Source of the DNA: a virus
Lineage: Duplodnaviria; Heunggongvirae; Uroviricota; Caudoviricetes
IMG/VR virus record: IMGVR_UViG_2684623127_000007
Direction: 5' to 3' (one strand)
Length of the DNA: 64,000 bases
Below, in pieces: positions 48,901 through 54,900 of the stretch (the stretch's first letter is position 1; each line of letters begins with the position of its first letter). Made by a program: the position numbers.

Positions 48901-51900
48901 GTGGGTTATTGAAGCCTGCAGAAGAAGATTAATTAATGAAAAATATTCTCAATTTGTACCCAACAAAGACAAACACGACCAGAGAACCTGTTCAGACAGG
49001 TTTACTTAAACGACTTATATATGACACAAAAAGCGACCACTAAAGTCGCTTTTTCTTATGGTAACAGGCAATAACGCTCTCAGATATTTTTTAGCATTTT
49101 TTTGACCGCGCGTTTCCGGACGTATTCTGTTCTCCTGTCCCTTTATATCGTCGGAATACCCGCCGCTCTTCAAATCCCATTCCCAACTCAGAATGTAGTC
49201 TGTTGACCGCTTGTTTTATTTCGGTCAGGTTCACCGGTGAAACCGGAGTCCGGCGCGCCTTACGCAAACACTCTGCTCGTTTCTGTGCCGCCACTTTTCT
49301 TTTCTGGTCATCACTTAGCTGTACCATCACTTTTGCCCATCGTTCAGCTGCTCTCCGGTACAGTCCTTTTTTCTCCAGACATTCTGCCAGGTGATCATGT
49401 AGCATAAGTAACCTCCGTTTATCTACAGACTGCCATCCTGAATTTACCGTCCTTAATAAGACAACAATAAAAAACTAATTATATAAAAACAATAAAAATA
49501 ATATACAAAAAAACTAAACAACAAAGAAAAGCAAATCATATCTGGCATTTTAATTGAAAGAGCAATTACCGAACAAAAGACGCTGACTATATACTCAAAA
49601 CCAAACAACAATTCTGCCAATCAGGTATCATGGCAACACACGGAATTACCATGTTTTTGCCTTCTCTGCCCATACAATACGGGCATATACTTCATACTCT
49701 ATTGTAATATTTCTATCCATGTGCCCCACTCCATTTACCTGTAAATAATATTCAAAATATTTATCACAGAAATCGTTTTTGGCCATGAACTGAGCACACT
49801 ATAAAGTCCGGAACTGACTCTTTGTTAAATTACCTTAACGTTACCAGTAACACCTTCGTAACAAAACATCACGGTATACACTGGGTACGGATATATTCCT
49901 GTGCTCCTTCCAGTTGCTTCTGCATTGCCATCAGCCGTTCTCTGAGGATGAAATAATCCCGTTCAGCGGCTTCTGCCAGTCGGGGACCGGTTGCATTATC
50001 CACGCCGGAGGTGATGGGGGCTTTACGCAAGGAGCCTGGACAGTTGGCGTTGATGCGCAGGCGCTTACGACCAGCGGCAACATCAGCACGCAGAGTTTCA
50101 TTTTCAGCTCTCGCATCGGCTAACTCCCTCGAGTATTTTGCATCGAGCGCAGCAACATCACGCTGGCGCACCTGCATGTCAGTAATGGTGGCATTCGCCT
50201 GTTCCAGCTCTCTGGCTTTTTTATCGCGCTGCGCTTTGTAGGTGAGCGCGTTGTCACGGTAATGGTTTGTTGCCAGCCACAGCGCACCATAGCCAACCGC
50301 CAGGACAATAATCACCACACACAGAACACGGTTCATCTCTCTTTCACCCCACCAGTCCCGATAACGTCAGGACTCGCCAGGCGGTGGAAAAGAAAATGGC
50401 AACCAGCATGACTAAAAATGAAATGCCGACAAGTACACAGAGGCTCTTCACCAGCGTTATGAGTTTATCTGATATCATTAGCCACCCCATCAATCCGCCT
50501 TTGTTATTTTCCCTTTGCCTGTATCAGCCAGGACAAAATCAATCAGCATATTCGCTTCATTTACCAGCGTACGGATTTTTGATACATGCGCGGCTTTAAC
50601 CTGTTTCCACTCATTCAGCCCGGTAGCAAACACACTGGCAATGTTTTTATCCCGTTTCATGTCAGCACAAGCCTGGTTGAGTTCTTCCATCACGCTCATT
50701 TTACGGGGATTAACGACAAAACCCTTCGTCCAGTACTCGTAAAGAACATCGTCGCACTCTTCCTGATACCGGATGACCTTATCGCGGATTTCGGGTTTTA
50801 CTTTGTTGGGATTAATGGTTTGTAGCCAGCCGGCAAGTTTTCGAAGTGGCATGGACACCATATTGCGTTGTTTCCCATCCTCAGCAACCATAACGATTTC
50901 CGTTATAGTTGACGCAAAACGCTGTCTTAACTTAGCCAACTGTGATTGCCAGGCCAGCCCCATCCCCGCAACGACAGGTTTCATGGGAACGTATGGTTCG
51001 CCATTATGGTTAACTACATAAAGAGAGTTGCCGTGAAACGGCACGGCCATCATATTCATCGGTTATTTCCTTTTAGTGATGAACCTTGTCTCACAGGAAT
51101 CCAGCCCACAGAAAGGCACCGACAGCCAAACCGGTATCCTCAAGGGTCATCCTGAAAGGTTCTGTGTTGTGAGATGCGCGTGAGATGCGCAGAAATGACA
51201 AAGGCATCATTACGGTGCCTGAGTGTTAAACAACTGTTTTGACTTTATTCACTTACATTTTGCCAATTTGCAGGATTTCGTGTTATCCGTCCATGTAAGC
51301 AAACCTCATTTTTCAGCAAAATATTCTGCTTATCTGTCGATTCCCCAGCACGCCAGCGCGCTCTCCTGGTCACGACGGGATACCTGACCGTAACAGTTAT
51401 TTGAGCGAATACGGCAGTCCCTGCCACCGTCCTTAATCCACCAGCGAATCGCTTCGCAGGCACCTTTTCGATCTCCTGCATTAATCCGTCTGTAAAACGT
51501 CGACGGGAAACACTTACCGGGGCCAATGTTGTACGGACAGAATGACGCGATCCCCGCTTTCTGGGGTTCGGTCAGCGGCACTCTGATGTTTTTCTCCACC
51601 CATGCCAGCGCCTTATCACGCTCAATGGCGTTAACCCGGTCGCATTTTTCCTTCGACAGCTTCATGCCAGGAATAACAGGCTTACCATCCCCCCGGGTGG
51701 CTCCACGGCAGATGGTCCAGATACCCGCACCATCACGGTATGCTGTGGTGTGGTTACCTTCCTTTTCATCCAGAAACTGGTCGAGGATTTCAGGCGCAGA
51801 CGCCCCTGCACCAATCAGCGCCAGAACGGCAGCCGACAGGCCGTATCTGATTTTTGCGTTCATGGATATTTATCAGGGTTTATCGATTTCAAATCCCTGG

Positions 51901-54900
51901 ATATGTTAAGTCTTCAGGCCAGCGGTGGAGTCTTCAGAGAACCCGTAATTATTCCCGGTAGTTTTCCTCTGTAGGTTATCAACACATCCTGCGCCTCTAA
52001 AATTACGGGACGCTTTTCCGGTAACGGACCATCCCCTTCACATAACCCGGCAGCAACATCCATGAAAAACTGCTTCGCCTGCTTTTTCGCCTCAGCTTCG
52101 TAAAACTCCAGCGTGGCACCTTCAGTACGGTCAAGACTAATCGCCACATCTGGCAACAACAGTGACGGATACCCACCAATTTCCGGTGCCACAGTAACAG
52201 TAATCTTATCCGGGTAATTATTTATCCCTTTAACAACCAGTTCGTATTTTTTCTTCATCACTTTACTCTCCCCGCGCCGCCTTACGCCGGTCTTCTTTAA
52301 TCTTGAAATACAGGTTCGTCAGATATGTCAGCAGCCCAAACAGCAGACTCCCCAGCACGCCTATCGCCACCCACTGGGACGGAGAGACTTTGTCCAGCAG
52401 CTGCAGTAACCAGTATCCCGTCCCCACCGCTGACGTGGTGTATGACACACCCGTTGTGATTTTTTCCATCTGGTACATACCCCGTCTCCCGTTATCCGGA
52501 AGCTGACAACAATAAAAAAGCCACCAGTTAACTACTGATGGCTCTGATAACTCATGCAGGCGTCTCAGACGACCCACTGACACTACCGGTGAGTTTAACG
52601 ATACCTTCCATTTGACTGGCTCACTTTTTATGATGATGCCGGTGCATTTATCTCCAGCACCAGACTTTCTATCTCAACGCCATACGCTGCATTTTTTGTA
52701 ACATCCGTCAGCGTCAGCGCATTCAGTCCCAGTGTCAGACTGTCTTTTATAACCTGGAATGCCGGGCCAGCCACTCCATTCAGTTTCGGAGTAACCGTGG
52801 CACTGCCGGCGGTGAACACCAGCTCCAGCGTCTGCCAGTCGTTACCGTAATCGCCGAACTCCCCCAGCTTCGTGTTTCCGGCTTTCCTGTGATGCATCAG
52901 ATTCACTCTGCCGTCAGTGGTCTGAGTGAAGTACGACATCAGGAACGGATTACCGGTACCCGTCATCGCCACACCATCAGGAACGGGAGCATCCGTATAC
53001 AGATAAATCCCCAGCCCGAACTGATTGTTGGTCAGTGCGCCTGACAGGCGGAACTTACAGTTCAGTCTGCCGCCCTGTGTCAGCAGGGTAATTGCGTCAT
53101 CCACCGGATGCGTCAGGGACCAGGTTTTATTGCTCTGCCTGGTGATCTTAAATACACCATCTGACAACTGAATTCCGCCATCCTTAATGCTCCAGCCCTG
53201 CGCAGCAGCCTCTCCGGCTGCCGGCAGCAGGGAGATTGTGCGAACGGACGTATCTGCAGACGGACCCGATGGCGTGTTGCCGCCGGGCGAGGGTTTGATT
53301 TCCGGTGCCTTACCACTGATGAAGGCTGAGGTGCGCCCGGCTGCGTTCAGAATAGCGGTTGCCATACGATCCGGAATAATGCTCCTGCGCGCCCATGAAC
53401 TGAAATGTGTCGGGCGGTTTGATGATACCAGGTTTCCATTCGTTCTCGATGCCGCACCGTAATATCCTGATGCCGGAATATCCGGATCTTCTGCCGGCGC
53501 GTTAGTGGCGGTATTGACGCCGTTACCGTCTGTCATGAAGGGCACAAAATAAACGCCCTCACTCTCCCTGTTTTTGTACGCCCCGTAAATGGTGTTGTAC
53601 TGGGTGCCGTAGGTATTTTTCCAGTAATACGTCGTGTCACCACAAATCCACGGCACATCTGCAGCACTGCCACCATGGCACTGCGCGTTAAACACGGAGA
53701 GGTCAGCACGAAACTGTGCCAGCATGGCTGTAAACAGCGCAGGTTGCTGTGCGTGGGTGGCGGCGCTCATGTCAAACTCTCCCTGCATCCAGCACACCGC
53801 CAGCAACACATTTTTCGGGTTCTTCTGTAATGCAGCTTTAGTGCGCGCAATCAGGTCCTGATATAACGGTTTACCCACACCCCAGCGCGCCGAATCCTGG
53901 CTGGCCCCCGCGTCCGCACTGAATGTCCCCTCCGCGCCCTGGGTGAATGCCGAACCACCACGACAGCATGGTACCAGCAGGATCCCCGCGTTATTCGGGA
54001 TATACGGAAGCAGTTTTTTGGCAATATGTAAGCCCTGGCCGACACAGCCGTACTGCCCTTTGCTCAGGTCTGCCTTCGGATGATTCAGCGTACTCATATC
54101 CTGCACATCATGCAGGCAGTGGTCGGCCGGAATAATATCGTTATATCTGCAGGCAGCCCCACCCGGCGTAACTGTACTGCGGCGCGCCAGCTGTTTAATG
54201 CGCGGATCCGGAGCATCGTATGAATCCGGCAGCGGAAGCCCTTCACCGTAAGCCATGGCATTGGACTGCCCGGCCAGTACGATGACGTAGTACCAATCCG
54301 GCTCAGTTGCACCACTGACCACCACATCACCTTCTGCTGTAATCACCTGCATCAGGGTATAAGGGGTTATGGCCACCGGACTACCAAACGGCTGCCAGCC
54401 CTCTTTCAGTTTGTGTGTCAGCTTTTCCGCAAGGTCTGACGGCGACGCCGCCCTGACAACATCATAATGTTTAAATGTCATTATTCCTCCCCTTTCCGGG
54501 ATTTTCCTCAACAGTTGCGGGCCACGGTCCGGCCACAAGGAGAATCAAAAGAGGAGAACCGCAGCCCGCAAAACGAAAAAGGCCGCGCAGTTGCGCAGCC
54601 TTATAAACCCTGGTTAAAATCCACACGATAAAAATGACAATGCAAGTATCTCATGCTGTTGCCCGAACCCACTCGGGCTTTTTTTTGCATGTAAAAAGGC
54701 TCCTGCGATGAGAAGCCTGGATATATGCCTAATCTCTGTATACAGCATGATGCCGGGTGCCTCCCGGTGAATTCTGCAATGACCAGACAGAATCCGCAAC
54801 TTGCCTATACAATACGCAACCAAACATCTGTCATTATGCCCCGCCGCTCAGGGGGATTCATCATGCAGGATTTTTTTAACAAACGCTCAGCATGTCAGGC

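What the first reader, a model, noticed from the sequence alone, without database searches (positions are those of the whole stretch)
51330..52478. Pinholin / SAR-endolysin lysis system with an extra gene inserted between holin and endolysin
The holin is S21-like (71 aa, MYQMEK dual start) and the endolysin has an N-terminal signal-anchor-release segment. A 115-aa ORF of unknown function (51914..52261) sits between them, starting 2 bp after the holin stop. It could be a lysis regulator or a moron hitch-hiking on late transcription.
Basis: partly seen in the sequence, partly recalled or inferred. Interest (0 to 1): 0.4.

Follow-up and report, generated by a model that had tools for sequence, protein, structure and literature searches.

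The report
YdfR gene between holin and endolysin
The "extra" gene between the holin and the endolysin is ydfR (DUF1327), an already annotated optional prophage gene also found in E. coli K-12; its function is unproven and it most likely is not part of the lysis machinery.

Summary
All three genes lie on the minus strand: an S21-type class II holin (52263..52478), a small ORF (51914..52258, 114 aa from the ATG) and an R21-type lysozyme with a SAR-like N-terminus (51330..51863).

The ORF is not new. It is PF07041 (DUF1327), a "YdfR family protein". It is 100% identical to WP_000731259.1 of E. coli O157:H7 prophages. It has the same position as ydfR in the K-12 Qin prophage (essQ-ydfR-rrrQ).

It is an optional cassette. 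Phage 21 and Min27 have S abutting R. In Min27 the same SD-TAA-ATG junction starts R directly.

The protein has no membrane segment. It has a beta-beta-beta-alpha N-domain (residues 5-73, confident model), a conserved 40-aa tail and dN/dS of about 0.2-0.4. No significant fold match was found.

Distant homologues consisting of the N-domain alone sit in tail-gene clusters, each followed by a convergent small ORF. This argues against a dedicated lysis role.

The only functional data are from a 2026 paper: residues 1-72 of K-12 YdfR bind the catalytic half of RNase E, and the protein co-purifies with RNA.

Best reading: a late-operon accessory gene that probably targets host RNA metabolism. Already known; modest interest.

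The parts
52263..52478 (-). Class II (S21-type) holin, 71 aa, with a second in-frame start at Met4 (codon 52467..52469) giving a 68-aa form
   Evidence: PF04971 E=8.5e-33. 75% identical to phage 21 S21, 96% to Min27 S and 80% to K-12 EssQ. PGAP annotates it as 216 nt in one genome and 207 nt in another.
52266..52273 (-). GGGGAGAG Shine-Dalgarno inside the 3' end of the holin gene. It is followed by TAA (52263..52265), four bases, then the ydfR ATG.
   Evidence: Sequence read. The same junction drives R directly in Min27. The spacing is 7 nt from the last holin sense codon in 87 of 89 loci.
51914..52258 (-). ydfR-family gene (DUF1327), 114 aa: N-domain residues 1-74 (beta-beta-beta-alpha) plus a conserved tail at residues 75-112
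   Evidence: PF07041 E=5.5e-46; phrog_406, unknown function. 100% identical to WP_000731259.1. AF2 pLDDT is 75-96 for residues 5-73 and below 50 for the tail. No hydrophobic segment: maximum Kyte-Doolittle score 0.89.
51923..51926 (-). Breakpoint relative to Stx2 phage 86. The window lacks 857 bp that in phage 86 encode the C-terminal 156 aa of a 268-aa YdfR and a convergent 104-aa ORF.
   Evidence: blastn of the window against L017; annotation of phage 86.
51864..51913 (-). 50-nt spacer that serves as a conserved leader of R in ydfR-carrying loci (...CCTGATAAATATCC-ATG). It has no obvious Shine-Dalgarno.
   Evidence: Alignment with phage 86, 2H10, Evi and mEp460. The gap is 50 nt in 73 of 80 near-identical viral contigs.
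51330..51863 (-). R21-type lysozyme with a SAR-like N-terminus, 177 aa
   Evidence: PF00959. 90% identical to K-12 RrrQ, 97% to Min27 R and 32% to R21, with E35/D44/T50 conserved. Residues 7-24 are 61% Gly/Ala/Ser.
52517..52545 (-). Terminator-like hairpin with a T-run just upstream of the holin
   Evidence: Pattern scan only; function not tested.
50490..51059 (-). Ant-like gene (P22_AR_N plus ORF11CD3), a second insert in the lysis cassette, between R and Rz
   Evidence: Pfam and PHROG hits. Same position in Min27 and phage 86.
49869..50336 (-). Rz i-spanin, with the Rz1 o-spanin embedded at 49931..50116
   Evidence: PF03245 E=1e-46 and PF06085 E=4e-19.

Best explanation
The extra ORF is ydfR (DUF1327). 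It is an optional accessory gene that sits exactly at the holin/endolysin junction of lambdoid (pro)phages of Escherichia. It is transcribed with the late lysis genes. It is translated from the Shine-Dalgarno/ATG that lies 4 nt after the holin stop, which is the very site that starts R in phages lacking the cassette. The product is a soluble cytoplasmic protein of 114 aa. It is not a component of the holin-endolysin-spanin machinery. Its most likely activity is inferred from the K-12 homologue, whose N-terminal 72 residues are enough to bind RNase E: it binds the catalytic half of host RNase E and/or RNA late in infection and so modulates RNA decay. Shown: the identity, position, optional nature and coding constraint of the gene, and the absence of membrane segments. 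Inferred: late co-expression, dispensability for lysis, and the RNase E/RNA target.
Confidence: 0.5

Rival explanations
1. YdfR is a cytoplasmic lysis-timing regulator. It binds the cytoplasmic tail of the pinholin or the basic N-terminal stub of the SAR endolysin, and delays or promotes triggering or release. This would be functionally analogous to an antiholin or to the Mu releasin.
For: The position is invariant: 7 nt after the last holin codon in 87 of 89 loci. The gene stays between holin and lysozyme even where the holin belongs to another family (Salmonella PF16080; mEp460). There is a precedent for an extra cytoplasm-facing protein controlling SAR endolysin release through basic N-terminal residues: Mu gp25 (PMC9239132). 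The Keio ydfR deletion was CPRG-positive in an envelope screen.
Against: Phage 21 and Min27 carry the same S and R types without it. Homologues of the N-domain sit in tail clusters. The protein has no membrane segment and no similarity to DUF2730 or to PHROG lysis families. Overexpression in K-12 gives no growth phenotype. The Keio hit can be explained, by my inference, by the kan cassette driving the downstream lysozyme gene rrrQ.
Confidence: 0.2
2. DUF1327 is one half of a mobile two-gene module whose other half is a small convergent gene. The late-expressed DUF1327 protein regulates or counteracts that partner. In this window the partner has been lost, so the copy is an orphan whose original role is gone or reduced.
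For: A convergent ORF of 74-182 aa follows the DUF1327 gene within -53 to +41 nt in all five tail-cluster contexts. The same holds in the lysis cassettes of phage 86, Evi, E. coli M11, 2H10 and E. ruysiae. The Evi partner (lysis context) is 64% identical to the L012 partner (tail context), E=1e-48. Relative to phage 86, the window lacks exactly the 857 bp that carry the partner.
Against: The partners belong to at least five unrelated PHROG families, all of unknown function. K-12, mEp460, Salmonella and the very common 114-aa form have no partner, yet remain under purifying selection. Co-occurrence was sampled, not tested statistically. There are no PADLOC hits.
Confidence: 0.2
3. The ORF is a decaying remnant with no protein function. 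Any effect is in cis, by uncoupling R translation from S.
For: It is truncated relative to the 176-, 183- and 268-aa forms. R loses the coupled SD-ATG and gains a leader without an obvious SD. One copy (E. coli M11) is annotated as partial and has dN/dS 0.87.
Against: dN/dS is 0.22-0.39 for the other comparisons. The 114-aa form is intact in all 80 viral contigs sampled and is identical across many O157 genomes. The tail is almost invariant among E. coli forms.
Confidence: 0.08

Closest known systems
YdfR (P76160) of the E. coli K-12 Qin cryptic prophage, in the essQ-ydfR-rrrQ-rzpQ/rzoQ cassette
   Same: Same Pfam family. Same position 4 nt after the stop of an S21-type holin (80% identical) and before a 177-aa lysozyme (90% identical). 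The N-domain aligns over residues 1-74.
   Different: Only 43-46% identical. K-12 YdfR is 103 aa with a different, helical C-terminus. It lacks the EKRPVILEAQ...KTPP tail, and its stop overlaps the rrrQ start, whereas here a 50-nt spacer follows.
Phage 21 S21/R21/Rz/Rz1 pinholin-SAR endolysin cassette
   Same: Holin 75% identical with the Met1/Met4 dual start. The endolysin shares the E35/D44/T50 triad and a SAR-like N-terminus. Spanins follow.
   Different: Phage 21 has no gene between S and R and none between R and Rz. Its antiholin extension is Met-Lys-Ser, whereas here it is Met-Tyr-Gln with no added positive side chain.
Stx2 phage Min27 / 933W-type lysis region (S-R-ant-Rz)
   Same: S 96% and R 97% identical. 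The same nanS-p-like esterase lies upstream and the same Ant-like insert lies between R and Rz.
   Different: Lacks the 400-bp ydfR cassette. R starts at the ATG that ydfR uses here.
Stx2 phage 86 YdfR (268 aa) plus convergent orf6
   Same: 95% nucleotide identity through codon 112 of ydfR and again from 66 nt upstream of R.
   Different: Carries 857 bp more: a long C-terminal extension (phrog_1085) and a convergent 104-aa gene (phrog_1853).
Phage proteins that act on RNase E: T4 Srd (binds the N-terminal half and stimulates host mRNA decay), phiKZ Dip, T7 gp0.7
   Same: If the K-12 result transfers, YdfR would be a small phage-encoded protein that binds the catalytic half of RNase E, as Srd does (PMC13232886; PMC4980113 for Dip).
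   Different: No sequence or fold relationship was tested or seen. YdfR is a late-operon gene of temperate phages. An effect on RNase E activity has not been shown.
Mu releasin gp25 (DUF2730) and antiholins such as P1 LydB
   Same: Extra genes in or near lysis cassettes that tune the release of SAR endolysins or holin triggering (PMC9239132; PMC9025707).
   Different: gp25 is membrane-tethered and belongs to a different family. YdfR has no TMD and no match to these families.

Membership tests
DUF1327 / YdfR family (PF07041) | Score above the Pfam gathering threshold | tested here: met
   155.2 bits against a 25-bit cut-off, E=5.5e-46.
DUF1327 / YdfR family (PF07041) | N-terminal domain of about 72 aa with the conserved YEL...V.VTV...DR.EG..LEFYE.EA pattern (Y53 and E54 invariant) | tested here: met
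   Alignments A6 and A9 of 18-29 diverse members. The AF2 model is beta-beta-beta-alpha at pLDDT 75-96.
DUF1327 / YdfR family (PF07041) | Genomic position as in K-12: directly after a class II holin and before a lysozyme | tested here: met
   This is typical of the Escherichia members but not of the whole family; see the tail-cluster homologues.
DUF1327 / YdfR family (PF07041) | Binding of the RNase E N-terminal half and co-purification of RNA (reported for K-12 YdfR only) | not testable with these tools
   PMC13232886. Only the homology of the binding region (residues 1-72) could be checked.
S21-type pinholin (class II holin, PF04971) | HMM match, two transmembrane segments, highly charged C-terminus | tested here: met
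   E=8.5e-33. 75% identical to S21 over the full length. TMD2 Kyte-Doolittle score 1.83.
S21-type pinholin (class II holin, PF04971) | Dual-start motif giving a longer antiholin with an extra positive charge (Met-Lys-Ser-Met in S21) | tested here: inconclusive
   Met1 and Met4 are present, but the extension is Met-Tyr-Gln without Lys. Antiholin activity of the 71-aa form cannot be judged from sequence. The role of Lys2 in S21 is from my own knowledge of the Young laboratory's work.
S21-type pinholin (class II holin, PF04971) | Formation of small pinholes that depolarise the membrane without letting endolysin through | not testable with these tools
   Needs physiology.
SAR endolysin of the R21 type (PF00959) | T4-lysozyme-like domain with the Glu-8aa-Asp-5aa-Thr triad | tested here: met
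   PF00959 E=1.5e-24. E35, D44 and T50 align with R21.
SAR endolysin of the R21 type (PF00959) | N-terminal weakly hydrophobic, Gly/Ala/Ser-rich signal-anchor-release segment after a short basic stub | tested here: met
   Residues 7-24 (YGLSAAVLALIGAGASAP) are 61% Gly/Ala/Ser, with a maximum Kyte-Doolittle score of 1.67, preceded by K4 and R6.
SAR endolysin of the R21 type (PF00959) | Sec-dependent export, membrane tethering and release on depolarisation | not testable with these tools
   Needs fractionation experiments.
Antiholin / releasin-type lysis regulators | Membrane segment or tether, or homology to a known regulator family (for example DUF2730 or PHROG 'lysis') | tested here: not met
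   No hydrophobic segment. The only Pfam hit is DUF1327, and all PHROG hits are 'unknown function'.
Antiholin / releasin-type lysis regulators | Present wherever the cognate holin/endolysin pair is present | tested here: not met
   Absent from phage 21 and Min27. Found in 101 of the 436 phage records that carry this holin type.
Classical moron (autonomous promoter-gene-terminator unit; own knowledge of Hendrix's definition) | Presence/absence polymorphism between otherwise collinear phages | tested here: met
   Clean 400-bp indel against Min27.
Classical moron (autonomous promoter-gene-terminator unit; own knowledge of Hendrix's definition) | Own promoter upstream and terminator downstream | tested here: not met
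   Only 4 nt separate the holin stop from the ATG. No sigma-70-like site or strong terminator flanks the gene on the minus strand. It therefore depends on late-operon read-through.

The most novel reading that the evidence does not exclude
The DUF1327 N-domain gene and a tightly abutting convergent small gene form a mobile two-gene module. The module lands at different junctions of lambdoid late operons: the S/R junction, and after tail genes H, M, L or I. The late-made DUF1327 protein, an RNase E- and RNA-binding factor, would silence or counteract its partner, which is expressed in the lysogen, when the phage turns lytic. The window would hold an orphan DUF1327 copy whose partner was deleted.
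Probability: 0.15. Interest if true: 0.55.

Novelty: already known. Interest (0 to 1): 0.25.

Why it matters
The finding as given is ordinary. The gene, its family name and its place in the lysis cassette are already annotated in K-12 and in more than half of complete E. coli genomes. What remains open is the function of YdfR. It is a y-ome protein present in up to eight copies per O157 genome, and it is expressed with the lysis genes (and, in Stx prophages, downstream of the toxin genes). If it really modulates RNase E late in induction, it could influence the stability of late transcripts and the timing of release in Shiga-toxin phages. The recurring pairing with a convergent gene, in both lysis and tail contexts, gives a concrete and cheap handle for testing what the family does.

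Tried and rejected
Searches that gave no functional assignment:
- PDB sequence search with the 114-aa protein: only a chance hit, E=1.3.
- NCBIfam: no family for the holin, YdfR or Ant.
- First AF2 model from a shallow 14-sequence alignment: poor, mean pLDDT 55. It was replaced by a 29-sequence model.
- afdb50 was not available.
- PADLOC on YdfR, the long form and eight convergent partners: nothing credible.

Scans with limited yield:
- The search for related loci with the two alignments of distant homologues failed for lack of conserved stretches.
- A viral scan with P0177 found nothing.
- The genome-contig scan found the window-type motifs in only three Escherichia species.
- The literature holds one paper with functional data on YdfR and one passing mention of DUF1327.

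Ideas rejected:
- YdfR compensates for the missing Lys in the MYQ antiholin extension. All four combinations of extension type and ydfR presence exist.
- The gene is a chance ORF or pseudogene. dN/dS and the Pfam score say otherwise.
- A second DUF1327 copy or a partner ORF lies elsewhere in the window. None was found.
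Full report
**1. What is in the sequence**

All genes of the finding are on the minus strand. From upstream to downstream they are:
- A nanS-p-like esterase (52628..54481 by PGAP; DUF1737 + SASA + DUF6645).
- A terminator-like hairpin (52517..52545).
- A 71-aa class II holin (52263..52478).
- A small ORF (51914..52258).
- A 50-nt spacer.
- A 177-aa lysozyme (51330..51863).
- An Ant-like gene (50490..51059).
- A 48-aa hydrophobic ORF (50344..50490).
- Rz/Rz1 (49869..50336 and 49931..50116).

The 10 kb around the finding is 100% identical to a prophage without stx in E. coli O157:H7 strain NE122 and in many other O157 genomes.

*Holin.* It matches PF04971 (E=8.5e-33). It is 75% identical to S21 of phage 21 and keeps both Met1 and Met4.

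*Lysozyme.* It matches PF00959. It has the E35/D44/T50 triad of R21. Residues 7-24 form a weakly hydrophobic stretch that is 61% Gly/Ala/Ser, preceded by K4 and R6. These are the sequence hallmarks of a SAR endolysin. Membrane release itself cannot be tested here.

The ATG at 52258 is the likely start, for four reasons:
- PGAP uses it.
- All homologues align from it.
- The Pfam match begins there.
- GGGGAGAG lies just upstream.

**2. Identity of the middle ORF**

The ORF is PF07041, DUF1327 (155 bits against a 25-bit cut-off), and phrog_406, "unknown function". RefSeq calls it "YdfR family protein", WP_000731259.1, 100% identical.

In the K-12 Qin prophage the order essQ-ydfR-rrrQ-rzpQ/rzoQ is the same:
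- The holin is 80% identical.
- The lysozyme is 90% identical.
- YdfR is 43-46% identical, with similarity confined to residues 1-74.

DNA similar to the ORF is found in 2923 of 5426 complete E. coli genomes, with up to eight places per genome. An exhaustive HMM search of 1.84 billion cluster representatives found only 89 clusters. A scan of one genome per species found the window-type motifs only in E. coli, E. albertii and E. ruysiae. The family is therefore abundant but taxonomically narrow.

**3. An optional cassette at a fixed site**

Phage 21 has S abutting R. Min27, a 933W-like Stx2 phage, has S 96% and R 97% identical to the window, yet it lacks window 51855..52254.

At the junction...GGGGAGAG TAA nnnG ATG is shared. 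In Min27 this ATG starts R; in the window it starts ydfR.

In 87 of 89 loci with an S21-type holin, the ydfR ATG lies 7 nt after the last holin sense codon. The right-hand side is variable:
- 50-nt spacer: this window and 73 of 80 near-identical viral contigs.
- 4-nt overlap: K-12.
- 55 nt: mEp460 and E. albertii.
- 121 nt: Salmonella.
- 233-452 nt containing an opposite-strand ORF of 79-104 aa: phage 86, Evi, 2H10, M11, E. ruysiae.

The last 20-60 nt before R (...CCTGATAAATATCC-ATG) are conserved among ydfR-carrying loci. R thus receives a different leader when the cassette is present.

In the phage collection the holin type occurs in 436 records and YdfR in 101. MYQ- and MKS-type holin N-termini each occur with and without ydfR. 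The gene is therefore not a compensator for the antiholin extension.

**4. The protein**

There is no hydrophobic segment (maximum 19-residue Kyte-Doolittle score 0.89) and the net charge is about -1, so the protein should be cytoplasmic.

AlphaFold2 with a 29-sequence alignment gives strands 5-14, 18-27 and 38-43 and a helix 50-73 at pLDDT 75-96. The tail (residues 75-114) is below 50.

The family is modular. The N-domain occurs in these forms:
- Alone, at 72-76 aa.
- With the EKRPVILEAQ...KTPP tail, at 114-116 aa.
- With the tail plus coiled-coil extensions, at 176, 183, 268 or 287 aa.
- With unrelated C-termini: K-12 at 103 aa, and another form at 206 aa.

Between the window and 62%-identical copies, the N-domain has dS of 1.6-2.0 while the tail has dS of 0.22. 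The gene is therefore a recombinational mosaic. dN/dS is 0.22-0.28 for the N-domain and 0.3-0.5 for the tail, which indicates purifying selection.

Compared with phage 86, the window lacks 857 bp. These encode the rest of a 268-aa YdfR and a convergent 104-aa gene. The breakpoint is at 51923..51926.

**5. Homologues outside the lysis cassette**

Stand-alone N-domain proteins (25-39% identical to the window protein) lie co-oriented inside lambdoid tail-gene clusters:
- After the tape measure gene (L012, L013).
- After M (L004, Yersinia rochesterensis).
- After L (L008-L011).
- Between I and J (L003, L005).

Each is followed within -23 to +41 nt by a convergent ORF of 74-182 aa. These ORFs belong to four PHROG families of unknown function.

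The partner in phage Evi, which is in a lysis context, is 64% identical to the partner in L012, which is in a tail context. Their DUF1327 genes are 38% identical.

In Salmonella a 195-aa DUF1327 protein lies between a different holin family (PF16080) and a lysozyme.

The N-domain is therefore not tied to lysis. The family behaves as mobile cargo of late operons.

**6. Function**

The held literature contains one study with functional data. It is PMC13232886 (RNA Biol 2026) and reports the following:
- Three independent two-hybrid clones of YdfR 1-72 were recovered with RNase G as bait.
- YdfR gave stronger signals with RNase E 1-597.
- Rne1-598 co-purified with Strep-YdfR.
- The eluate contained abundant DNase-resistant nucleic acid.
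- Overexpression had few transcriptome changes and no growth defect.

The authors compare such binders to T4 Srd.

The Keio ydfR mutant appears in the hit lists of the Paradis-Bleau envelope-leakiness screen. The kan cassette sits directly upstream of the lysozyme gene, so a polar effect is an obvious alternative; this is my inference.

Putting these together, the best-supported reading is a late-expressed cytoplasmic accessory protein that targets RNase E and/or RNA. My probabilities are:
- About 0.98 that it is YdfR.
- About 0.8 that it is not needed for lysis.
- About 0.35 that RNase E or RNA is the physiological target.

Three rivals remain: a lysis-timing regulator, an orphan half of a two-gene convergent module, and a decaying remnant with cis effects only.

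**7. Verdict**

The feature is already known as an annotated family and arrangement, with its function still open. Interest is low to moderate. The most novel reading that the evidence leaves open is the convergent two-gene module.

Noticed in passing
L003 3640-4163; L004 4001-4529; L005 4001-4506; L008 4001-4821; L012 4001-4634: Stand-alone DUF1327 N-domain genes (72-99 aa) sit at four different junctions of lambdoid tail-gene clusters. Each is followed at once by a convergent small ORF from one of four PHROG families of unknown function (10490, 6806, 18578, 25324).
   Followed up: partly
L020 (phage Evi) 2001-2540 and L012 4001-4634: The convergent partner in a lysis-cassette context (Evi) is 64% identical (E=1e-48) to the partner in a tail-cluster context (L012). 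The adjacent DUF1327 genes are only 38% identical. This suggests the pair moves as a unit or exchanges partners.
   Followed up: partly
window 50490-51059 and 50344-50490 (minus strand): A second insert lies in the lysis cassette, between R and Rz. It consists of an Ant-like protein (P22_AR_N + ORF11CD3) followed by a 48-aa very hydrophobic ORF that PGAP annotates as hypothetical. Min27 and phage 86 have the Ant gene at the same place.
   Followed up: no
window 52467-52478 (minus strand): The holin's N-terminal extension is Met-Tyr-Gln rather than the Met-Lys-Ser of S21 and EssQ. The longer product therefore gains no positive side chain, and it is unclear whether it still acts as an antiholin.
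   Followed up: partly
window 51914-52258, codons 1-74 versus codons 75-112: The gene is a mosaic. Against 62%-identical copies, the N-domain has dS of 1.6-2.0 but the tail only 0.22. Several independent short forms all end right after KTPP (LA, KW, ESQP, E), which points to a recombination boundary there.
   Followed up: partly
window 51864-51913: When ydfR is present, R loses the coupled SD-ATG after the holin. It is instead preceded by a conserved leader (CCTGATAAATATCC-ATG) with no obvious Shine-Dalgarno. The first three R codons also differ (MNAK here, MSRK in Min27).
   Followed up: partly
window 52517-52545 (minus strand): A 12-bp stem-loop with a T-run lies between the esterase gene and the holin, as a terminator-like site inside the late operon.
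   Followed up: no
L001 7085-8298 (E. coli O157:H7 PV15-279): In another O157 genome the otherwise identical cassette has an IS1203 inserted between the lysozyme and the Ant-like gene, and the esterase is frameshifted.
   Followed up: no
proteins P0010, P0068, P0090, P0091: Database proteins of 173-187 aa combine PF04971 and PF07041. These are holin-YdfR fusions, probably created by frameshifts or assembly errors near the holin stop.
   Followed up: no
protein P0152 (112 aa): The conserved YdfR tail (EKRPIILEAQ...KTPPKW) occurs at the C-terminus of a protein whose N-terminus resembles the coiled-coil extension of the long YdfR forms. The modules therefore also occur in the opposite order.
   Followed up: no
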